The notes beneath the pieces are model-generated. The model saw only the letters and a list, made by a program, of their open reading frames with translations, was not told where the DNA came from and made no database searches. Shown here piece by piece: positions 1-41,155 of a DNA stretch of 64,000 nucleotides. The position numbers and the translations under genes were made by a program. The stretch covers positions 41,280-105,279 of the IMG/VR virus record IMGVR_UViG_3300023178_000017; one strand, given 5' to 3'. The first letter of the stretch is position 1. Every line of letters starts with the position of its first letter. Source of the stretch: a virus.

Positions 1-762
1 ATATGTAGATGGTGATCTGTGTTGATATGTGCTAGGTACACGATATGATCTTGGGTCTTGATATGTAGACGGCGATCTATGTTGATATGTGCTAGGTACA
101 CGATATGATCTAGGATCACGGTATGTAAATGGCGATCTATGGTTATATGTAAACGGTGACCTATGTTGATACGTAAACGGTGATCTATGTTGATAAGTCG
201 AAGGTTGTCTAGCGCCTCTAATATTAGGTTCTTGTGCTGATACAGGGTGTCTGTAACCTGCTGGTTGTTGTGCTGATCTAATATTAGGTTCTTGTGCTGA
301 TACAGGGTGTCTATAACCTGCTGGTTGTCTAGCATTACCAATTACTGGTTGTTGTGCTGATACAGGTGCTCTATATGCTGCTGGTTGTCTAGCATTTCTA
401 ATATTAGGTTCTTGTGCTGATCTGATATTAGGTTCTTGACCGCTTCTAATATTAGGTTCTTGTGCTGATCTAATATTAGGTTGTTGACCATTCGCAATAT
501 AAGGCGACTGGAAAGTAAACGGTTGCCTTGCGTTATTAGGTTGTTGAGCATTTGCAATATAAGGCGACTGGAAAGTAAACGGTTGCCTTGCGTTATTAGG
601 TTGTCTAGCATTTGCAATATAAGGTGACTGATATGTAAATGGATTCTGGAATGTAAATGGATTCTGGAATGTAAATGGATTCTGGAAAGTAAAAGGTGTC
701 TGCACAGGAACAGAAGCCTGTGTAATACCTTGAGCATTTGCTGGATAAAAACCTGTTGCCAT
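1..762 (-). CDS. Pro-punctuated repeat fibre protein B (3' end runs off the window); partner of 774..2549
   Basis: Not in the ORF track because it has no stop in the window. Hand translation from ATG 762 is open to position 1: MATGFYPANAQGITQASVPVQTP-FTFQNP x3-FTYQSP-YIANARQP-NNARQP...NIRSAQEP...STYQHRSP-FTYRDP-RSYRVP. Confidence 0.9.
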   Translation of the reverse strand, partial: MATGFYPANAQGITQASVPVQTPFTFQNPFTFQNPFTFQNPFTYQSPYIANARQPNNARQPFTFQSPYIANAQQPNNARQPFTFQSPYIANGQQPNIRSAQEPNIRSGQEPNIRSAQEPNIRNARQPAAYRAPVSAQQPVIGNARQPAGYRHPVSAQEPNIRSAQQPAGYRHPVSAQEPNIRGARQPSTYQHRSPFTYQHRSPFTYNHRSPFTYRDPRSYRVPSTYQHRSPSTYQDPRSYRVPSTYQHRSPSTY

Positions 763-773
763 TTTACTTTAGA

Positions 774-2549
774 TTACTTAGGTGATGGTTTAAAGAAGAA
801 GAAGTTGTGAGCTAATACACCATTTGCAAAGAAATTGTGATTGTCGCCAACGTTCTTCAAGTTATACACCTGTTGTGAATCTTTCTCCTCTATTTTAATT
901 ATTTCTAGTCCTATTTCTGTACCTAGTACAGCATCTGTCATGGTCATCAAATGATCACCGACTGCGATTTCTGAATTTACAAATTCATCTCCACCTTCTT
1001 CTTTGTGGAATTCTTTAAATTTCTCTAAGTTGATAACACCCCATTCACCATTCATTGTTCTAAATGGATGTTCTGAAGTTGTTTCAAGTATTCTACCGTC
1101 TGATAAATGTATCTCATGTATTGATACTTCTCTTGGTTGCATCAACTCTTCGACTACACCGATCTCTAATTTATTTGTCTCTTCGTTCCAAGTCATTACG
1201 TCTTGACCAACTTCTACTGTTTCAATTGGTACATGACTGCCATCGCCCAACCATATCATTGTGCCGGCAACAAAACATCCTTTGCCACCTCCAGGAATGT
1301 TACCAGGTATTGGACCAAACGGTTGATAGAAGTACACTGCTGGGAAGATAAATGGATATCTTGCTGTTTGTTGTGTAGTACTTGGTTGCCTTGCGTTATT
1401 TGGTTGCCTTGCGTTGTTTGGTTGCCTTGCGTTATTAGGTTGTCTAGCAGCAACTGGTTGTCTTGCCTGATACGTAAACGGCGCACGGAATGTAAATGGA
1501 GTCCTTGCGTTATTAGGTTGTCTTGCCTGATACGTAAACGGCGCACGGAATGTAAATGGAGTCCTTGCGTTATTAGGTTGTCTTGCCTGATACGTAAACG
1601 GCGATCTATGGTTATACGTAAACGGTGATCTGTGGTTATATGTAAACGGTGATCTGTGGTTATACGTATACGGTGATCTATGTTGATACGTAAATGGCAC
1701 CCTATATGATCTTGGATCACGGTATGTAAATGGTGATCTGTACGCATACGTAAACGGTATCTGATATGATCTTGGATCACGGTATGTAAATGGTGATCTA
1801 TGTTGATACGTAAATGGCACCCTATATGATCTTGGGTCTCTATATGTAAATGGTGACCTATGTTGATACGTAAACGGTGTTTGTGCGTTTCTGATATTTG
1901 GTTCTTGTGCAGACCTAATATTTGGTTCTTGACCGCTTCTAATATTAGGCTCTTGAGCAGCAACTGGATGTTGATAAGATGCTGGTGTTTGTCTATTTCT
2001 TATAAACGGAGTCTGAGCACTTACAGGGTGATTATACCCAGCTGGTGTTTGTGCGTTTCTGATAAACGGATTCTGTGCATTAACAGGATGTTGATAAGAA
2101 GCAGGTTGTTGTGCGTTTCTGATAAACGGATTCTGTGCATTTACTGGATGTCTATAGAATGCTGGTGTTTGTCTATTTCTTATAAACGGATTCTGTGCAT
2201 TAACAGGATGTCTATATGATACAGAGTTTTGTGCATTCGCAATATAAGGCGATTGAGCATTCGCAATATAAGGATACGGCTGTTGTGCATCTCTTATAAA
2301 TGGATTCTGTCTATTAGCAATATAAGGATACGGCTGTTGTGCATCTCTTATAAATGGATTCTGTCTATTAGCAATATAAGGATATGGTTGTTGTGTAGGT
2401 TGTTGACCTGATGCGTTATTCCACCCACTAGGAGTTTTAATGTAAATTTGATCTACATCTTTCCAAGTGTTTGAAGCAGTTTTAACCCATGCACCTTGGG
2501 TTGAATTCCAACCTGAGGGGGTTTTTACTTTCTGTGAGCCTGTCGCCAT
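774..2549 (-). CDS. Pro-punctuated repeat fibre protein A with C-terminal Hint (BIL-like) domain
   Basis: N-terminal WVK/YIK..GW motif, about 340 aa of 6/8-residue Pro-terminated modules, then the Hint domain and the tail FFFFKPSPK. Confidence 0.9.
   Translation of the reverse strand: MATGSQKVKTPSGWNSTQGAWVKTASNTWKDVDQIYIKTPSGWNNASGQQPTQQPYPYIANRQNPFIRDAQQPYPYIANRQNPFIRDAQQPYPYIANAQSPYIANAQNSVSYRHPVNAQNPFIRNRQTPAFYRHPVNAQNPFIRNAQQPASYQHPVNAQNPFIRNAQTPAGYNHPVSAQTPFIRNRQTPASYQHPVAAQEPNIRSGQEPNIRSAQEPNIRNAQTPFTYQHRSPFTYRDPRSYRVPFTYQHRSPFTYRDPRSYQIPFTYAYRSPFTYRDPRSYRVPFTYQHRSPYTYNHRSPFTYNHRSPFTYNHRSPFTYQARQPNNARTPFTFRAPFTYQARQPNNARTPFTFRAPFTYQARQPVAARQPNNARQPNNARQPNNARQPSTTQQTARYPFIFPAVYFYQPFGPIPGNIPGGGKGCFVAGTMIWLGDGSHVPIETVEVGQDVMTWNEETNKLEIGVVEELMQPREVSIHEIHLSDGRILETTSEHPFRTMNGEWGVINLEKFKEFHKEEGGDEFVNSEIAVGDHLMTMTDAVLGTEIGLEIIKIEEKDSQQVYNLKNVGDNHNFFANGVLAHNFFFFKPSPK
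804..1277 (-). other. Hint / bacterial intein-like domain (158 aa, no endonuclease)
   Basis: Block A CFVAGTMI (Cys425), block B TTSEHPF, block F/G VYNLKNVGDNHNFFANGVLAHN. The +1 residue is Phe. Confidence 0.9.
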
Positions 2550-2582: not shown

Positions 2583-4880
2583 TTATGAATAAAGAATCCA
2601 TAGATCACCAACTGCTCCGTCACCTGAAGTAGGTGCAGAAGTTGATTGATATATGTTTCTCGCAACACCACCACTATTTGAAGCGTATGATGTTGAAATT
2701 TGTGATGCTCTAAAGTTTGCGTCTGTTAATGTTAACGAACCTGTAGAAGCACCAGTTGCAGTTGTTGTAGCAACTACAAACTCATCAGCACTTTCGTCCC
2801 AACCCATAAATGCGTTGTCGCCAGTTGAACCTCTTTCTAACACAAGACCAAGGTCATTTGAGTTAGCACCTGTGTTACCAGACCCTAATTCAATCAATGC
2901 ATCACTGATTGTTGTATTTGTAGAATCTACAGTTGATGTAGTACCATTAACTGTTAGGTTACCAGATAATGTTAAGTTACCAAATTGTACGTTACTTGTT
3001 GTAGCAACTGCCTGACCAATACTTATTTCACCTGAACTAATTGAGACACCAGTTCCTGCACTAATATGACTTCTAACTTCTGAAGCGCTTGGGCCAGTAT
3101 ATGTGATTACACCAGTAGATGAATTGTATGCTAAACTTCCATCACCACCTGAATCAGTAACAGAGATTGAACCTCTTGCATCTGAATCAGCATATTGTGT
3201 AATTGTTGTTGCAAGTGTTAAGGTACCATTTACATCATCGTATGTTGATGTGATGCCTGTACCTGCTGTTACTAAAGCATTTACTCTGTCATCAACTCTT
3301 TCGTCTGTGAAGTATAAGTTTGATGAACCTTCTGTTAACGAATCTGTATCTGGTAATAATGCATTAACTCTAGCATCTGCTCTAGCGTTTGTAAAGTAAA
3401 GGTTTGAACCTTCTGAAATATGAGCAGTTGTTGAAGGTATTGTAATAGCACCTGTACTTGAATCATATGCACCTGCACCAGAGTTTGTACTTAGAGATGC
3501 TCTTGCTCTAGCATCTGTATAGAATAAGTTTGTTGAACCTTCTGTAATGTCATCTGAATCACCACTTAGTTCACTTAATGCATCTGCTGTATCTACTTGT
3601 GCATCAACATAAGTTTTGACTGCTAACTGAGAAGGTACTAAAGTATCTGAAGCACTACCAAAATTAACATCTGTATCGATTGCATTTTGAACTCTAGCGT
3701 CTGCTCTTGCATTTGTAAAGTATAAGTTTGTAGAGCCTTCTGTTATTTCATCTGTATTGTCTTTACTTGCGACTTGTGAATCTACATATGCTTTAACTGA
3801 TTGTTGAGAAGGTATTCTTGTTTCACTATTAGACACCATATTATCTTCATCGATAAGAGCTGCTGTGATTCTAGCATCTGCTCTAGCGTCAGTGAAATAT
3901 AAGTTTGAACCTTCTGCTAAATCACCAGTGTCATGGTTAGCAATACTAGTAACTGTACCAGTTACGTTACCAGTTAAGTTTCCTTCGAATGTTCCTGCAA
4001 CAAAAGTTTCTGAACCGACTGTCCATTTATCGTTGGTCTCATCCCATAAGAATGTTTTTGCAGTTGAACTACCTCTAGTTACACTCAAACCAGCATCTTC
4101 TGTTGGTGAACCTGAAGTAAAGTTACTGTTTAATGCGATTGTGTTGTCTGCAAGGTTAATTGTCTCTGAGTTTACAGTTGTTGTTGTACCTGAAACTGTT
4201 AGTGAACCTGAGATTGTAACATCATCGTTAAGTGAAATAACACCATTTCCGTTACCACTCAATACTAAGTTAGTATCAGCTGATCTGGACACGATTTGAT
4301 CAACTGCAATATTGTTACTAAATGTGATGTTGTTTCCTGCACTGTTGGTAATATTGTTACCGTCTTCGATTTGAACTGGACCTTTAAGTGCAATAACACC
4401 TGATCCTGTTGCATCTAACTCTAAATCACCAGAACCACTTGTCTGTATAGACATGTTTTGGTTAGAGTCAGCACTAAAGACGATTGTACCTGAGTCATCT
4501 GAAATAACCTGTTGTCCGTTAACATATAAAGAACCAGGTCCAACGTATACGTCTTTCCATGTTCTACTTGATGAACCTAAGTCGTATGTGTTATCTGCGC
4601 TTGGTATGATGTTACCTGCAAATGTACCACCACCTAAGTATGATAATACATCTGAGTCGCCGTATTGGGCTGCACCTGCGATTGTTAGTGTGTTAGCAGA
4701 ATCATCGTATGTTAATGTGATGCCTGTACCTGCTGTTAAAAGTTGAGCGACTCTATCGTCTACTGACTCATCTAATGCTGATGCTGAAATTGAACCAACG
4801 TATGATCCAGAAGAGCTAATAACCTCTGTTCCACCGATTGACAGGCCGTTTTTAATATTAAAATTCTTTTCCCCTGCCAT
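2583..4880 (-). CDS. Tail fibre-like virion protein
   Basis: G/S/T/D-rich, with repeated TDxxTEGSxNLYFTxARA motifs and [12 protein letters not shown] segments; C-terminal APTSGDGAVGDLWILYS. Confidence 0.75.
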   Translation of the reverse strand: MAGEKNFNIKNGLSIGGTEVISSSGSYVGSISASALDESVDDRVAQLLTAGTGITLTYDDSANTLTIAGAAQYGDSDVLSYLGGGTFAGNIIPSADNTYDLGSSSRTWKDVYVGPGSLYVNGQQVISDDSGTIVFSADSNQNMSIQTSGSGDLELDATGSGVIALKGPVQIEDGNNITNSAGNNITFSNNIAVDQIVSRSADTNLVLSGNGNGVISLNDDVTISGSLTVSGTTTTVNSETINLADNTIALNSNFTSGSPTEDAGLSVTRGSSTAKTFLWDETNDKWTVGSETFVAGTFEGNLTGNVTGTVTSIANHDTGDLAEGSNLYFTDARADARITAALIDEDNMVSNSETRIPSQQSVKAYVDSQVASKDNTDEITEGSTNLYFTNARADARVQNAIDTDVNFGSASDTLVPSQLAVKTYVDAQVDTADALSELSGDSDDITEGSTNLFYTDARARASLSTNSGAGAYDSSTGAITIPSTTAHISEGSNLYFTNARADARVNALLPDTDSLTEGSSNLYFTDERVDDRVNALVTAGTGITSTYDDVNGTLTLATTITQYADSDARGSISVTDSGGDGSLAYNSSTGVITYTGPSASEVRSHISAGTGVSISSGEISIGQAVATTSNVQFGNLTLSGNLTVNGTTSTVDSTNTTISDALIELGSGNTGANSNDLGLVLERGSTGDNAFMGWDESADEFVVATTTATGASTGSLTLTDANFRASQISTSYASNSGGVARNIYQSTSAPTSGDGAVGDLWILYS

Positions 4881-9659: not shown

Positions 9660-10589
9660 CTAATTATTTAATTGGGAATATGGGACTTTTGTATGTATTT
9701 TTTCTACTGTAGTTGGATCAGTTTTTACGTATGCTTCTTCTAATTGTTTTACAGTACCGTCTGCATCTTTAACATAAACTTGTTTAACTTCTGCTACAGG
9801 ACCTATAGGTCTTCTGCTAGAATATGTTATCTGATATGTAAATGGTGATCTATGTTGATATGTAGTTTGTACAACAATGTTACCACTTCTTGTATTCTGA
9901 GCATTTGCAATATATGGTGAAGGTTGAGAAGCAGAAACCCTATATGTATCTGGCGATCTATGTTGATACGTAAATGGTATTCTATGTTGATAGAACGATG
10001 GTGATCTATGTTGATACGTAAATGGTGTTCTACCTGTTGTAGGATATGTTATAGGTTGCCTATGTTGATATGTTGTTGGTGTTCGCCCTGTTGCCTGATA
10101 TGTTGAAGGCTGTCTTGCATCTCTAATAAATGGATTCTGTCTATCAACAGGATGTCTGTAAGTTGTAGGTGAAGGTTTATTTCTTATAAACGGATTCTGT
10201 TTATTTACAGGATGTCTGTAATTAGCTGATATACGATAGCTACCAATTATCGGATTCTGTCTGTTAACAGGATGTTGATAAGCTGCTGGTTGACGTTGAT
10301 TTGCAACATAAGGTGATGGTCTATTTCTAATAAACGGATTCTGTTGTTGTGCAATGTATGGTGATTGAAATGGACTTCTTGCGATAGCAGCTGTCTGTGC
10401 GTTTGCTATGTAAGGAATAGGCACTCTAGTATTAGCAACTGTCTGAGCGTTTGCTGATGCACGGGCATTAGCAATGTACGGCACAGGCGTAGTACCGTTA
10501 GTAGAATTTTGTCTATTAGCAATATAAGGATACGGCTGTTGTCCTGGCGTTGCGTTTGAATTGCTATATGTTACTTGTACGGTTGGCAT
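9660..10589 (-). CDS. Pro-punctuated repeat fibre protein D; partner of 10591..12255
   Basis: Same module vocabulary (YIANAQ, FIRN, YQHRSP); C-terminal VKQVYVK..AYVK motif. Confidence 0.85.
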   Translation of the reverse strand: MPTVQVTYSNSNATPGQQPYPYIANRQNSTNGTTPVPYIANARASANAQTVANTRVPIPYIANAQTAAIARSPFQSPYIAQQQNPFIRNRPSPYVANQRQPAAYQHPVNRQNPIIGSYRISANYRHPVNKQNPFIRNKPSPTTYRHPVDRQNPFIRDARQPSTYQATGRTPTTYQHRQPITYPTTGRTPFTYQHRSPSFYQHRIPFTYQHRSPDTYRVSASQPSPYIANAQNTRSGNIVVQTTYQHRSPFTYQITYSSRRPIGPVAEVKQVYVKDADGTVKQLEEAYVKTDPTTVEKIHTKVPYSQLNN

Positions 10590-10590
10590 T

Positions 10591-12255
10591 TTATACTATT
10601 ATTGGCCCCCCACTACCTGCATTATATGCTGCTCTTAAACTTATGGGGCTTGATGACCAAGAACCGTTGAAGTATGAAGCTATATGAAAATATGTATAAT
10701 AAGTGTCTGTGCCTTTTGTTGCTTTTATTCCAAAATAAACATCATTTGATGTTAATTGTACTGGATTACCTGTGCTGTCGTATACACCCCACTTAAAAAA
10801 TCTAGCAGTGCGAGTACCATTAAATCCACCCCTTGAAGTTGAACCAGACCAGAAATTATAATATTGGCCTCTGGTTTTTCCACAAACATGTGGATAAAAT
10901 CCATAACTGTTTCCACCTCCTCCGTAACAATTTGTTTGAGCTTGAGTACCTGATACCGATTCACCACTTGCATAATATGCTACATCAAAATTCCAAGTAT
11001 CGTCAATTATACCATTAGCATTCAAATCGGTAATAGGCATATAAAATCTATAATAAAAACTCCAACCACTATTACTAAAAGAGTTATAATGACCATACGA
11101 TATTCTAAAAGCCCCTAAAGGATTTGTCTGAACAGTATTATTGTTAGCTGCAAAATCAAATTGCATATAACAACCACATTCGGTATGATTAAAACCAGGA
11201 TTACCAGTTGCTAATTGAAGAGTATTCCAACTTGGTACACTAAACATAGAAGCAGTTCCTGAAGGTGGGTCAGAATTTATATAATTCGTACTACCACCAA
11301 AAGGATATACATCCCAAACAGGATTACTTATACCTGAGCCCCAAGGTTGAGGGTTCGGTTGATTAGCTAAAGTTGCACTTGTTGCTGTTGAACTTCCAGA
11401 CAGTGCTGATTCGCCTACAATACCTTCATATGATGTTGGTACCTGAGCAGTCGATGGTGACTGATATATGTAAGGCGTTTGGCCTTGTGCTGAATAAGTC
11501 GAAGGCGATTGATAAATGTAAGGCGATGGTCTTTGCGCCTGATACGTAAACGGATTTTGATAAATCGATGGCACCCTATATGTTTGAGGACTTCTTTGTT
11601 GTGCTTGATAAGTTGAAGGCACTCTATAAGGTACAGGTTGTTGATTTGACTCCTGTGCGTTTATATTTGCTGGTGACTGGTGTTGATACGTAGTAGGTTG
11701 TTGTGCCTGATATGTTACAGGATTTCTGTAACTTCTTGGGTCACGATATGTACTAGGTGATCTATAAGCATAACTTACAGGATTTCTGTAACTTCTTGGG
11801 TCACGATATGTACTAGGTGATTGATGTTGATACGCAACTATAACCTGTGCATTTCTTGGGTCTCTATAAGTTGAAGGACTTTGATGTTGATACGTAAACG
11901 GTGTTTGTGCGTTTGCAGGATACGGATACGGATTCTGTCTATTAGCAATATAAGGTGATTGTGCATCGGCCTGATAAGTATACGTTTGTTGTGCGTTTCT
12001 TATAAAAGGATTTTGTCTCGATCTTATGTTAGGTTGCTGTGCGTTTCTTATAAAAGGATTTTGCCTATTAACAGGATTTCGATAAATTATTGGTTGTTGA
12101 TTCTGATAAGTCGAAGGAGACTGAAACGTATAAGGAACAATCGATGGTTGTTGTCTTATATTTGGTTCTTGAATGTTAGCAGGTTGCCTTGCTATGTAAG
12201 GTTGCTGAAAACTACCGCCATTTAAATTGTGTTTAATGTAAATTTTATCTGCCAT
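10591..12255 (-). CDS. Pro-punctuated repeat fibre protein C with aromatic-rich C-terminal head domain
   Basis: N-terminal KIYIK, about 260 aa of modules, then about 270 aa of non-repetitive W/Y/F/G/C-rich sequence. Confidence 0.85.
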   Translation of the reverse strand: MADKIYIKHNLNGGSFQQPYIARQPANIQEPNIRQQPSIVPYTFQSPSTYQNQQPIIYRNPVNRQNPFIRNAQQPNIRSRQNPFIRNAQQTYTYQADAQSPYIANRQNPYPYPANAQTPFTYQHQSPSTYRDPRNAQVIVAYQHQSPSTYRDPRSYRNPVSYAYRSPSTYRDPRSYRNPVTYQAQQPTTYQHQSPANINAQESNQQPVPYRVPSTYQAQQRSPQTYRVPSIYQNPFTYQAQRPSPYIYQSPSTYSAQGQTPYIYQSPSTAQVPTSYEGIVGESALSGSSTATSATLANQPNPQPWGSGISNPVWDVYPFGGSTNYINSDPPSGTASMFSVPSWNTLQLATGNPGFNHTECGCYMQFDFAANNNTVQTNPLGAFRISYGHYNSFSNSGWSFYYRFYMPITDLNANGIIDDTWNFDVAYYASGESVSGTQAQTNCYGGGGNSYGFYPHVCGKTRGQYYNFWSGSTSRGGFNGTRTARFFKWGVYDSTGNPVQLTSNDVYFGIKATKGTDTYYTYFHIASYFNGSWSSSPISLRAAYNAGSGGPIIV

Positions 12256-39085: not shown

Positions 39086-39678
39086 GTCTATTAAAGAGAT
39101 TAGCTGAAGAAACACCTAGCGGATTGCGAAGACGATCAGCTGATGCCATGAAATGGCTGACGAAACGAATTCGAAGACTAAAAATATCCTCAGATAGATT
39201 CTATACGAACACACGTCAAGGGACACAAAAAACTGCTAGACTTCTTGACGGTAGAATGTACTGTTTCTTTTACATAGCAAAGTATGAAGAAGTATTGCCT
39301 TACTATGATACTTTTCCATGCGTATTGATGATAGAGATGAACTATGCAAATAAGACTTTTCTAGGTTTAAACTTGCATTACATACCACCTCGTTATCGTG
39401 CTAGATTGTTAGATGAATTATTCAAGTATACTAACAATCAAAACTACGATGAAACAACTCGTATACGTATGACTTATAAAATATTAAGTAGCGTCACACG
39501 TATGAAATATTTCAAACCTTGTTTAAAGAAATATAGGATGGACCATATTCAAGGCACAGCAATGGAAATTCTGCCTGAATATTGGGACATAGTTGCAATG
39601 TTACCACTTGCACAATTCGAAAAAGATACAGTCACAAAAGTTTATGCAGACAGTTTAAAGGTATTAACATCATCATAG
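39082..39678 (+). CDS. gp2: DNA end protector gp2
   Basis: GRMY.FFY.AK....LPYYD.FP, GLNLHY.PP..R..LL; CATAAATA late promoter at 39067-39074. Confidence 0.88.
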   Translation: MSLLKRLAEETPSGLRRRSADAMKWLTKRIRRLKISSDRFYTNTRQGTQKTARLLDGRMYCFFYIAKYEEVLPYYDTFPCVLMIEMNYANKTFLGLNLHYIPPRYRARLLDELFKYTNNQNYDETTRIRMTYKILSSVTRMKYFKPCLKKYRMDHIQGTAMEILPEYWDIVAMLPLAQFEKDTVTKVYADSLKVLTSS

Positions 39679-39686
39679 GATAAAAA

Positions 39687-40433
39687 ATGGCAGAAGATTA
39701 CAATGTAGACAAATACGGAGAAACCGTAACTACAGCTAAGAAACGAAGAAAACAAAGAGAAGAATTAAACATAGATCGTCTTAGATTTAATTTTGATCAA
39801 GGTGCTAGATCAAATAGATTTCTTGTAAATCTATTTTTACCTGAAAAATTATCAGGTTTTAAGTTCGAAGGTATTAGATGTATCAGCGCCACATTGCCTG
39901 GTAGAACATTAGAAACAACAGAGTTTTCAGAATATGGCGCAACAAGAAAGATGCCATTTCAAACACAACATGACGAAGCTACATTTACATTTTTATGTGA
40001 CTCAACGTTTGCAGATAGATTTATAATAGATGCTTGGCAATCCATAGTCTACACAGGTTCAGAAAGTACAGGCAATTCTGCAATGCCTATTTTCTCTTAC
40101 TATAATGATTATGTTGGCCAAGTAGAAATTACACAATTAACAAGAAAAGGAGATAGTGCTTTAAAATATACATTGTACGAAGCATATCCCGTAGCATTTG
40201 CAGCTCAAGAATTATCTTGGGAATCTACAGATGAAATTATGAAATTTGAATGCACTATTGCTTACAGAACGTTTGATGTTTCATATGAAAAACCGTCAAA
40301 CGTTAGCGGTCTAAATAGAGGAATAAGAGGCATTAGTGCTTTAAGAGATTTACTCGGAGTTTTTGGTAATAAGAGTAAGACTTTAAATAGATTTGAAAAT
40401 AGACTGAGAGACTTAAGTGGTCTCTTTGGTTAA
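39687..40433 (+). CDS. Tail tube initiator, gp54/gp19-like
   Basis: ARSNRF.V, C..ATLPG, Y.LYEAYP, LSW...D..MKF..T.AYR tail-tube fold motifs. Confidence 0.75.
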   Translation: MAEDYNVDKYGETVTTAKKRRKQREELNIDRLRFNFDQGARSNRFLVNLFLPEKLSGFKFEGIRCISATLPGRTLETTEFSEYGATRKMPFQTQHDEATFTFLCDSTFADRFIIDAWQSIVYTGSESTGNSAMPIFSYYNDYVGQVEITQLTRKGDSALKYTLYEAYPVAFAAQELSWESTDEIMKFECTIAYRTFDVSYEKPSNVSGLNRGIRGISALRDLLGVFGNKSKTLNRFENRLRDLSGLFG

Positions 40434-40447
40434 TTAGGAGATAAATT

Positions 40448-41155
40448 ATGGAATTACCAATACAGGCGGCGCCTAAGTTTACGACTACACTGCCTATTAG
40501 TCAACAAGAAGTGACTTACAGACCATTTCTTGTTAAAGAACAAAGAAATTTGTTATTGGCAAAAGAAAGTGATAGTCAAAAAGAAATATTTAAGGCGCTA
40601 GAAGGAATAGTTACATCTGTTTCAGACGGTTCTGTTGATGTCAAAGAGTTAACAACAACAGATATAGAATATTTGTTTTTACAAATAAGAACAAAGTCTA
40701 TCGGTGAAACGGCTAGTGTAACATTCAATTGTGTAGAAGATGAATGCGATGGCGAGATACCATCAAAGTTAAATCTTTTAGACGTAGAAGTTGTAGGCAA
40801 CTACAAGGCAGAAGATAGAGTTCAACTCACAGAAGAATTGTTTGTTGATTTAAAATATCCATCTGCCCAGCAGTTAATCGACATCACTGATACAAAAGAT
40901 GAAGAACTGCAAAACAAAAAAATGATGAGGATGTCCATGAGACGAATTATCGACAGCGAGAATGTTTATGAATTAGATGAATATCCTGATTCAGAAATAG
41001 ACAAGTTTGTAGATAGTTTAACTGTAGACCAATTTAGTAAAATTACTAAATTCTATGAAGACATTCCAACATTGTCGCTTACAACAAAAACTGTCTGCCC
41101 TAAATGTAAGGATGAAAGAGTTAGACAGATTAAAGGCTTACAGAATTTTTTTTAG
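40448..41155 (+). CDS. gp26: Baseplate hub assembly protein gp26
   Basis: LP, YRPFLVKEQ..LL.A.E, DIEYLFLQIR.KS.GE, C..C, ends GLQNFF. Confidence 0.88.
   Translation: MELPIQAAPKFTTTLPISQQEVTYRPFLVKEQRNLLLAKESDSQKEIFKALEGIVTSVSDGSVDVKELTTTDIEYLFLQIRTKSIGETASVTFNCVEDECDGEIPSKLNLLDVEVVGNYKAEDRVQLTEELFVDLKYPSAQQLIDITDTKDEELQNKKMMRMSMRRIIDSENVYELDEYPDSEIDKFVDSLTVDQFSKITKFYEDIPTLSLTTKTVCPKCKDERVRQIKGLQNFF

What the first reader, a model, noticed from the sequence alone, without database searches (positions are those of the whole stretch)
10..2066. Protein-level 'reverse complement': two adjacent genes encode an antiparallel-matched peptide zipper
Seen: cut protein A (774..2549) and protein B (1..762, unlisted) after each Pro. 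B read N->C and A read C->N give the same length string over all 33 visible modules (228 aa): 6,6,6,6,8,6,6,8,6,6,8,8,8,8,8,6,6,8,6,6,8,6,6,8,8,8,8,6,6,8,6,6,8. The partners follow a consistent, largely reciprocal code: FTFQNP/FTFxxP with NNARxP, YIANxxQP with FTYQARQP, (N/F)IRxxxxP with xTY(Q/N)HRSP, AxYxxP with RSYxxP, and VxAQxP with xTYxDP. The single odd 8-mer in A (FTYAYRSP) faces the single odd 8-mer in B (VIGNARQP). This is not a DNA inverted repeat, and A is not self-complementary. Inference: A and B form a long antiparallel heteromeric beta-ribbon fibre (about 75 nm for the visible part if fully extended), with register set by a peptide pairing code. Every repeat expansion in one gene must then be mirrored in the other. 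I know of no described phage fibre built this way.
Basis: partly seen in the sequence, partly recalled or inferred. Interest (0 to 1): 0.97.

Follow-up and report, generated by a model that had tools for sequence, protein, structure and literature searches.

The report
Mirror-coded two-protein phage fibre shaft
Two neighbouring genes of an uncultured marine T4-like phage encode proline-punctuated repeat proteins that match unit for unit, in length and in complementary type, when one is read backwards; about 50 related gene pairs keep this match although their repeat numbers differ widely, which points to a two-protein antiparallel fibre held in register by a pairing code that I could not find described.

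Summary
With the full sequence of B (376 aa, recovered from the parent record), both arrays are exactly 334 aa. 47 of B's 48 module boundaries (array start plus each Pro) coincide with those of A read backwards. The blind length prediction for the unseen part (6,6,8 x3, then 10,8,10,8,10) was met exactly; the predicted YVK end domain was not.

In 54 distinct homologous gene pairs from IMG/VR (about 23-71 modules), a median 90% of B's Pro boundaries mirror the cognate A, against 49% for non-cognate A. Facing modules follow a near-binary, reciprocal code: an aromatic 'knob' type always faces a small 'hole' type. Near relatives differ by matched, mirrored insertions and replacements. 99.4% of Pro spacings are even.

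There is no DNA inverted repeat. Best reading: A and B pair antiparallel into a long shaft at the distal end of a tail fibre of a pelagimyophage-like virus. A carries a variable tip end, here a non-splicing Hint domain.

Binding itself is untested; both folding attempts were uninformative. No paper describes this. The scan had already found the same phenomenon on other, related phage DNA, with the same verdict.

The parts
774..2549 (-). Gene A, the long chain, 591 aa
   Evidence: ORF. Differences between near orthologues fall on the third codon position (12/7/48) and synonymous changes outnumber non-synonymous (44:12).
2385..2549 (-). A residues 1-55: conserved N-terminal domain (KVKTPxGWN..WVKT..WKxVxQIYxKTPxGWNxASGQ). 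Inferred proximal attachment end.
   Evidence: Many invariant columns in 40 homologues.
1383..2384 (-). A array, residues 56-389, 334 aa. N to C: (10,8)2,10, then (8,6,6)5, 8x3, (8,6,6)3, 8x5, (6,6,8)2, 6x4.
1278..1382 (-). A residues 390-424: aromatic-rich then Gly-rich tail ending GGGKG, just before the Hint Cys.
   Evidence: Hint-less homologues end at the equivalent point.
804..1277 (-). A residues 425-582: Hint / bacterial-intein-like domain (Cys425, TSEH 491-494, His581-Asn582; the +1 residue is Phe).
   Evidence: Six Hint-clan Pfam hits, all below their cut-offs; best is PF14890, E 5e-8, 33.3 against 35.8 bits. PDB 2LWY, a bacterial intein-like domain, E 2e-4. Landmarks.
1..762 (-). Gene B, the short chain: N-terminal 254 of 376 aa. 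The rest lies 369 nt beyond the window start (L001:1132..2262, -).
   Evidence: Third-position excess 113/110/448.
1..693 (-). B array, residues 24-254 of 24-357 (334 aa in all); the exact mirror of the A array.
2583..4880 (-). Upstream fibre gene (765 aa) with conserved C-terminus ..GDGAVGDLWILYS. Syntenic partner of the pair and inferred carrier fibre.
   Evidence: PHROG structural and minor-tail hits. Present directly upstream of A in 47 of 49 loci.
10591..12255 (-). Second long chain 'E' (554 aa): array plus an orphan globular C-terminal domain.
9660..10589 (-). Second short chain 'D' (309 aa), the mirrored partner of E. It ends in the VYVK..EKIH motif.
   Evidence: Mirror score 117 bits against 31-38 for module shuffles and 15 for parallel.

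Best explanation
A and B are partner chains of one elongated assembly. Their 334-residue arrays lie side by side in opposite directions, module against module.

Each module is a short extended (beta-type) segment ending in Pro. The Pro of one chain lies opposite a Pro of the other. An aromatic 'knob' module (xT[Y/F]...) always faces a small-residue 'hole' module (xxA / xIR / YIAN...). This sets a single register over the whole length.

The conserved ends (A's N-terminal domain and B's C-terminal RWDG..QQWPxxP tail) form the proximal junction to the upstream fibre protein. The variable ends (A's C-terminus and B's N-terminus) form the distal tip. In this phage A's C-terminus carries a self-cleaving, non-splicing Hint domain.

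The stoichiometry may be AB or, by analogy with trimeric fibres, (AB)3, that is six strands. Repeat slippage changes the length, and selection retains changes that are matched in the partner.

Shown: the mirror, the code, the co-variation, the synteny and that both frames are coding. Inferred: physical pairing, beta geometry, polarity and the fibre role.
For: - Exact mirror over the whole of both arrays, including the part predicted blind.
- In 54 distinct pairs, a median 90% of B's Pro boundaries are mirrored in the cognate A, against 49% in non-cognate A. The cognate ranks first for 48 of 54. The best parallel offsets share far fewer boundaries.
- More than 35 different architectures. Array spans correlate at r = 0.94.
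- Module-type table over about 1,500 facing pairs: VxAQ faces xTYRx in 122 of 123 cases; xTF faces NNAR in 61 of 63; TYxAR faces YIAN in 179 of 183; xIR faces TYxHR in 248 of 284. The table is reciprocal, and TY types never face each other.
- Position 3 is aromatic against non-aromatic in 1416 pairs and not in 109. Among 10-mers, xTY..[QT]G faces YPYIA in about 297 of 357.
- A facing-residue matrix trained without the window gives one peak of +442 bits at the expected register for A/B. It gives nothing for A/A, A/D, E/B or any parallel offset.
- Matched indels and replacements between near relatives at mirrored places: L033/L032 and L025/L041.
- 99.4% of 4,795 Pro spacings are even, which indicates a two-residue periodicity.
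- Covariation peaks sit at antiparallel, same-parity corners (hole 5 and 7 with knob 1; hole 1 and 3 with knob 7) in both gene orientations.
- Position in the fibre / host-recognition cluster of a T4-like myovirus, with conserved synteny.
- A second pair type follows the same code.
Against: - There is no direct evidence of binding.
- Both arrays are strongly cationic (+33 and +32 net), so pairing must overcome like charge.
- Uncompensated differences exist: L023 has +44 aa in B only, and L071 has -18 aa in A only.
- The residue covariation could partly be hitch-hiking of co-duplicated super-repeats.
- Many loci are related, so the counts are not independent events.
- Short-read assemblies of repeats can be wrong, and contigs from public runs do not span the arrays.
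Confidence: 0.68

Rival explanations
1. The pairing is real, but B is a dedicated templating chaperone rather than a structural partner. It zips onto A during folding, much as downstream-encoded tail-fibre chaperones or donor strands do, and is absent from the virion.
For: B lies immediately downstream of A (11-nt spacer), the usual place for fibre chaperones (my own knowledge of T4 gp38 and lambda Tfa). B has no domain other than the array and short conserved ends.
Against: A 1:1, full-length, module-exact complement is an expensive chaperone. B's C-terminal tail is as conserved as A's N-domain, as expected for a permanent junction. In the second pair type the short chain ends in a folded-looking motif.
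Confidence: 0.13
2. A and B do not touch. Each lies, in opposite orientation, along a common third partner with dyad or antiparallel symmetry (another fibre protein, a polyanionic glycan, or nucleic acid). The mirror reflects that shared ruler.
For: Both arrays are highly cationic and rich in Arg, Asn and Gln, which suits a polyanionic ligand. The neighbouring genes are conserved.
Against: A shared ruler would favour like modules at like places, not strict knob-against-hole complementarity with reciprocity. Array length varies 3-fold between phages while the neighbours stay conserved. No third array protein lies in the locus.
Confidence: 0.08
3. The mirror is a DNA- or RNA-level relic or constraint (an ancient inverted duplication, or a hairpin between the two coding regions), not a protein property.
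For: Reciprocity of the code is also what a reverse complement would give. The best reverse-complement offset (+9 nt, 33%) is the top of 801 offsets.
Against: In-register identity is 19%, and 33% is only 3 sd above background, about the excess that alignment of the CC of Pro codons would give. Only 13 of 83 Arg codons are AGG, so an AGG-to-CCT antisense origin is not established. The genes are in direct orientation and share parallel DNA homology (69% over 330 nt). The same module types occur in both genes. A relic cannot explain matched changes between near relatives. Substitutions are mostly synonymous.
Confidence: 0.03
4. Coincidence produced by palindromic tandem blocks.
For: 8(668)n, 8n and 6n are palindromic, so much of a 47-module match is automatic once the block numbers agree (my analysis).
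Against: Block-number null P is about 3.5e-7 for this pair alone. The match is replicated in about 50 pairs of differing architecture with a cognate-specific signal. The type code is independent of lengths.
Confidence: 0.01

Closest known systems
Needle (D10-D11) of the T4 long-tail-fibre tip, gp37 (PDB 2XGF; described in PMC6957217)
   Same: A thin distal fibre segment of a T4-type phage in which extended strands run out to the tip and back. D10 is made of residues 811-881 and 1010-1026, so the chain returns. The tip is at the turn. The gene sits at the end of the fibre gene row.
   Different: gp37 is one chain per subunit and a homotrimer, stabilised by seven His-bound iron ions. Here the outgoing and returning strands are two separate genes, the arrays are 334 aa of Pro-terminated 6/8/10-aa modules, and there is no HxH motif. 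There is no sequence match to any PDB chain. Length is highly variable, with a module-level pairing code.
Streptococcal antigen I/II (SpaP/SspB) stalk (my own knowledge; lead from earlier notes)
   Same: Two different repeat arrays (Ala-rich and Pro-rich) pair antiparallel over tens of nanometres to present a tip domain.
   Different: That is one polypeptide folding back, an alpha-helix wound with a polyproline-II helix, with 82- and 39-aa repeats and no module-by-module code. Here there are two genes with an even-numbered (beta-type) periodicity.
Spectrin alpha/beta antiparallel heterodimer and antiparallel coiled-coil arms (SMC/Rad50) (my own knowledge)
   Same: Long antiparallel side-by-side pairing of two repeat arrays whose lengths must match.
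   Different: Those are alpha-helical, with 106-aa repeats or heptads, and have no knob/hole module alphabet. They are not phage proteins.
Bacterial intein-like (BIL) / Hint domains (PDB 2LWY; Pfam clan members PF14890, PF07591, PF13403)
   Same: The C-terminal 158 aa of A carry Cys1, TxxH and a terminal His-Asn.
   Different: This applies only to the C-terminal appendage. It is present in only 20 of 54 homologous long chains, so it is not part of the pairing device.
Perutz 'polar zipper' and negative design of beta-sheet edges by Pro (my own knowledge)
   Same: Gln/Asn/Arg-rich antiparallel strands, with Pro at regular even spacing as expected if the imino nitrogen must always point the same way.
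   Different: These are concepts, not a family. No natural two-gene, register-coded example is known to me.

Membership tests
Hint / bacterial intein-like domain (A residues 425-582) | N-terminal nucleophile (Cys/Ser) at the cleavage junction | tested here: met
   Cys425 follows GGGKG.
Hint / bacterial intein-like domain (A residues 425-582) | Block B TxxH motif and C-terminal His-Asn | tested here: met
   TSEH at 491-494; His581-Asn582.
Hint / bacterial intein-like domain (A residues 425-582) | Profile match above the curated threshold | tested here: inconclusive
   Six Hint-clan Pfam families hit, all below their cut-offs (best PF14890, 33.3 against 35.8 bits, E 5e-8). PDB 2LWY E 2e-4.
True (splicing) intein | Cys/Ser/Thr at +1 of the C-extein | tested here: not met
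   The +1 residue is Phe583, and only 9 residues follow. It is therefore a cleaving, non-splicing domain at most.
T4 gp37-type needle | Sequence relationship to gp37 or another solved fibre chain | tested here: not met
   phmmer of B against all PDB chains gave 0 hits at E <= 1. A gave only intein hits.
T4 gp37-type needle | HxH iron-binding motifs along the needle | tested here: not met
   No HxH in either array. The motif's role is described in PMC6957217.
T4 gp37-type needle | Outgoing and returning strands antiparallel with the tip at the turn; trimeric | not testable with these tools
   The mirror and the variable A-C-terminal / B-N-terminal end fit this. The oligomeric state is unknown.
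Collagen-like triple helix | Gly at every third residue | tested here: not met
   No run of four or more G-x-y triplets. Gly is 1-3% of the arrays.
DNA inverted repeat / palindrome | Reverse-complement similarity between the two arrays | tested here: not met
   19% in register; best 33% against a background of 24.7%. blastn found only same-strand matches.
Two-stranded or six-stranded antiparallel beta shaft (proposed) | Two-residue periodicity | tested here: met
   99.4% of 4,795 Pro-to-Pro spacings are even.
Two-stranded or six-stranded antiparallel beta shaft (proposed) | Physical contact of A and B in the mirrored register | not testable with these tools
   Folding tools gave no usable model; see Tried and rejected.

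The most novel reading that the evidence does not exclude
A natural protein 'duplex'. Two separately encoded chains zip antiparallel over 150-540 residues under a readable, reciprocal module alphabet, knob or hole in three lengths. Register and length are therefore written in sequence much as in nucleic-acid complementarity. The contiguous inner DNA segment (A's 3' part plus B's 5' part) encodes a self-contained distal fibre cassette that can be exchanged by a single double crossover.
Probability: 0.55. Interest if true: 0.95.

Novelty: categorically new. Interest (0 to 1): 0.9.

Why it matters
All phage fibres I know of are parallel homotrimers, or single chains that fold back. A shaft built from two complementary genes, with a module-level pairing code and freely variable length, would be a new principle of fibrous-protein architecture.

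It is directly testable by co-expression, cross-linking and cryo-EM. It also offers a natural rule set for designing register-specific beta-type protein pairs and nanofibres.

The genes sit in the host-recognition cluster of an abundant group of ocean myoviruses. Their nearest cultured relatives infect OM43 and SAR11 (about 40% identity in gp6). The device may therefore bear on how these phages reach and recognise very small, dilute hosts.

Tried and rejected
- Complex prediction, A 1-150 with B 264-376, both with 40-row alignments: no verdict (ipSAE 0.00, partner pLDDT below 50). Not evidence either way.
- AlphaFold2 on an artificial read-through fusion of a Hint-less in-frame pair (L035, stops read as Gly), with 10 other read-through fusions as a paired alignment: mean pLDDT 33, pTM 0.23. 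Uninformative. The second AF2 job was not spent.
- tblastn of A against 50,697 cultured-phage records: no match.
- PDB sequence search of the arrays: nothing. ESM Atlas: only chance-level hits.
- Five literature searches, including the literal motifs: nothing on this architecture.
- Search for natural single-chain A-B fusions: none. The five longer relatives are E-type long chains (array, globular domain, Hint) with no self-mirror.
I used the search for related loci instead.
- Public runs: the stretch occurs in salt-marsh and marine metagenomes, and identical short pieces occur in two RNA libraries. Contigs are fragmented in the arrays, so they neither verify repeat numbers nor prove transcription.
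- The tip domain of E has no relative among 1.84 billion representatives, so it was not folded.
- My early 'third class with a 300-nt gap' was partly an artefact. In L017 B starts at an upstream GTG. Other such loci do carry a roughly 145-aa variable C-terminal domain on A.
- Antisense origin of the Pro pattern: considered and rejected.
Full report
**Anatomy**

The window is bases 41280-105279 of a 105-kb IMG/VR virus record. Gene A (window 774..2549, minus strand, 591 aa) is followed after 11 nt by gene B. Only 254 codons of B lie in the window; the parent record gives the whole 376-aa protein.

A has four parts:
- a conserved 55-aa N-terminal domain;
- a 334-aa array of modules that each end in Pro;
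- a 35-aa aromatic-then-glycine tail;
- a 158-aa Hint / bacterial-intein-like domain (Cys425, TSEH, His-Asn). This domain is followed by Phe, so it can cleave but not splice.

B has a 23-aa head, a 334-aa array and a conserved 19-aa tail (VNRWDG..QQWPASPITS). The arrays are about 15% Pro, 12% Arg and 11% Gln. They have Ala, Asn, Tyr, Thr, Ser and Phe, almost no acidic residues, and no Lys, Leu, Met, Cys or Trp. Net charge is +33 and +32.

Between near orthologues, differences fall on third codon positions and are mostly synonymous. The annotated frames are therefore the translated ones, although all frames are open in these repeats.

**The observation**

With the full B, its module lengths read N to C are: 6x4; (8,6,6)x2; 8x5; (6,6,8)x3; 8x3; (6,6,8)x5; then 10,8,10,8,10. 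A gives the same string when read C to N.

47 of B's 48 boundaries (array start plus each Pro) coincide at one rigid offset. The exceptions are three YP dipeptides in A and one Ser in place of Pro. The predicted YVK end domain is not there.

The blocks are individually palindromic, so the real information is about nine repeat numbers. Under independent draws from the family's own distribution these agree with P about 3.5e-7.

**Not a nucleic-acid effect**

The two genes are in direct orientation. In register, B's array is 19% identical to the reverse complement of A's. The best offset (+9 nt) reaches 33% against 24.7 +/- 2.9%, an excess about equal to what alignment of the CC of Pro codons would give.

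The arrays also share ordinary parallel homology: 69% DNA identity over 330 nt. The same module types occur in both proteins but with swapped repeat numbers (5,3,3 in A against 3,3,5 in B). Parallel alignment mismatches these numbers and antiparallel alignment fits them.

**Family evidence**

A search of IMG/VR returned 75 loci. Nearly all have the same adjacent A-like and B-like genes.

- In 54 distinct pairs, with about 23 to 71 modules, a median 90% of B's Pro boundaries are mirrored in the cognate A at one rigid offset. The figure for non-cognate A is 49%. The cognate ranks first for 48 of 54.
- At least 35 different architectures occur.
- Array spans run from about 150 to 540 aa and correlate at r = 0.94.
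- Near relatives differ by matched changes at mirrored places. L032 differs from L033 by [10,8,10] and [8] added in both genes. L041 differs from L025 by a [6,6] block replaced with YPYIAN-10 / YIAN-8 / YPYIAN-10 in A. In B the facing [6,6] block is replaced with TYARQG-10 / FTYQNRQP-8 / TYARQG-10. The A change is 32 modules from A's N-end and the B change is 31 from B's C-end.
- Two uncompensated differences also exist (L023, L071). They may be polymorphism or assembly error.

**The code**

Over about 1,500 cleanly facing module pairs from 50 distinct pair lists, the type table is almost free of exceptions and is reciprocal between the genes:

| Module type | Faces | Count |
|---|---|---|
| VxAQxP | xTYRxP | 122 of 123 |
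| xTFxxP | NNARxP | 61 of 63 |
| xTYxARxP | YIANxxxP | 179 of 183 |
| xIRxxxxP | xTYxHRxP | 248 of 284 |
| AxYRxP-type | RSYRVP-type | 71 |

TY types essentially never face TY types, and YIAN never faces YIAN. Reduced to one position, residue 3 is aromatic on one side and not on the other in 1416 of 1525 pairs. Among the 10-mers, xTY..[Q/T]G..P faces YPYIA... in about 297 of 357 cases.

A facing-residue log-odds matrix trained only on the IMG/VR pairs was applied to the window. It gives one peak of +442 bits at the expected register for A/B. It gives no positive score at any other offset, in parallel, or for A/A, A/D and E/B. B/B shows a weak partial self-complement of +53.

**Hints on geometry**

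99.4% of 4,795 Pro-to-Pro spacings are even. This is the signature of a two-residue repeat, that is extended beta-type strands with every Pro in the same phase.

The mirror places Pro opposite Pro. In that register Tyr or Phe at position 3 lies opposite Ala or Gly, and the enriched contacts are Y:A, Y:G, H:R, I:R, F:Q and T:Q.

Within fixed type pairs, covariation is strongest between residues at opposite ends and of the same parity (hole 5 and 7 with knob 1; hole 1 and 3 with knob 7). It is absent for 1-1, and this holds in both gene orientations. The rare xIG variant faces a Tyr-5 variant in 3 of 4 cases. This fits antiparallel cross-strand neighbours, but hitch-hiking of co-duplicated super-repeats cannot be excluded.

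Strict knob-against-hole packing is easier to rationalise if three AB pairs surround a thin core, as in the gp37 needle, than in an isolated two-stranded ribbon. I cannot decide between these two.

**Context**

The phage is a T4-like myovirus. Its gp6 is 41% identical to that of OM43 phage Melnitz and about 39% identical to those of pelagiphages Mosig and HTVC008M.

The pair closes the fibre / host-recognition cluster, which lies between the VrlC-like giant protein and the neck genes, as described for pelagimyophages in PMC7029224. In almost all loci the gene order is:
1. a fibre gene of variable length with a conserved C-terminus ..GDGAVGDLWILYS;
2. A;
3. B;
4. a 534-aa protein with a weak GT8 match;
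5. a 189-aa unknown, two 2OG-Fe(II) oxygenases and a 282-aa unknown between them;
6. gp13/gp14-like neck genes.

A's N-domain and B's tail are conserved. A's C-terminus is variable: a Hint domain in 20 of 54, a short aromatic/Gly tail in about 25, and a roughly 145-aa variable domain in about 9. I infer that the conserved end is proximal and the turn end is the distal tip.

**A second pair type**

Window 10591..12255 and 9660..10589 encode a second pair type. The long chain has an array plus an orphan globular domain that has no relatives among 1.84 billion representatives. In other phages this type is followed by a Hint domain.

With gapped mirror alignment, 12 of 14 distinct pairs of this type score 91-172 bits, against 21-69 for module shuffles and 11-16 for parallel. 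The window pair scores 117, but the non-cognate E/B pair reaches 92. The same code applies, with weaker specificity.

**What is not shown**

Binding, stoichiometry, secondary structure, virion location and Hint cleavage are all inferred. The two folding attempts were uninformative.

The like charge of the two chains is unexplained. Arg-aromatic stacking, a polyanionic ligand, or modification by the neighbouring enzymes are possibilities.

**Comparison and novelty**

No solved chain resembles the arrays, and no cultured phage has the genes. The 418 metagenomic relatives carry no informative name; the few that are labelled are 'hypothetical protein' or a bare gene locator. Five literature searches found nothing.

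The closest functional analogue is the out-and-back needle of T4 gp37. The defining features I could test (sequence relationship, HxH iron sites, single chain) are not met. I therefore say it may work like a very long, two-gene needle, not that it is a member of that family.

Earlier notes of this scan report the same phenomenon on more than ten other, related phage genomes, with follow-up verdicts like mine. I used them as leads only (gp37 needle, antigen I/II stalk, second pair, IG/AY covariation) and re-tested what I could.

Noticed in passing
L164:6278-7882 (-), directly downstream of B (outside the window, G000:C1 about 39277-40881): A 534-aa protein with a weak C-terminal glycosyltransferase family 8 match (E 6.8e-5, below the cut-off). 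It follows B in 64 of 67 loci. Possibly a fibre-modifying enzyme or chaperone.
   Followed up: partly
L164:4953-5690 (-) and L164:3441-4136 (-): Two 2OG-Fe(II) oxygenases (PF13640, a family I recall includes prolyl-4-hydroxylase homologues, and PF13759) are syntenic with the pair in 56-63 of 67 loci. The arrays are rich in Pro, Arg, Asn and His, residues I know as substrates of protein hydroxylases. This is speculation only.
   Followed up: partly
window 1..2384 (both arrays): Both arrays are strongly cationic (+33 and +32; family median +7.4 per 100 aa) with almost no Asp, Glu or Lys. This is unexplained for two chains that are proposed to pair.
   Followed up: partly
window 9660..12255: A second long/short pair obeys the same mirrored code (117 bits against 31-38 for shuffles). 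The C-terminal 264 aa of its long chain are an orphan domain with no relatives in 1.84 billion representatives, as expected of a hypervariable receptor-binding tip.
   Followed up: partly
L023 against L024; L069 against L071: Near-identical phages in which only one partner gained or lost a super-repeat (B +44 aa; A -18 aa). These are mismatched pairs that are either real polymorphism or repeat mis-assembly.
   Followed up: no
L017:6632-6916 (upstream of the called B start): In this locus B starts at a GTG (VPIGNRQQP = MPIGNRQQP), 95 codons upstream of the first ATG. ATG-only gene calling truncates the array.
   Followed up: yes
window 2583..4880 and homologues: The fibre gene upstream of A varies from about 475 to 1317 aa (complete copies). 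It always ends in RN[IVM]YQSTSAPxxxDGAVGD[LM]W[IV]LYS, a likely docking motif for the A/B proximal end.
   Followed up: partly
window 1..2549, other frames and the + strand: All six frames are open across the arrays, for example 1256..1963 (-) of 235 aa and 1203..1628 (+) of 141 aa. These are by-products of the stop-poor repeats. Codon-position statistics support only the annotated frames.
   Followed up: yes
L165:1758-1770 (Hint region of A) in run X10: A 2024 marine metagenome holds a 95-99% identical variant with in-frame 6-nt and 3-nt insertions in the Hint domain. The gene is therefore present in independent samples and years.
   Followed up: no
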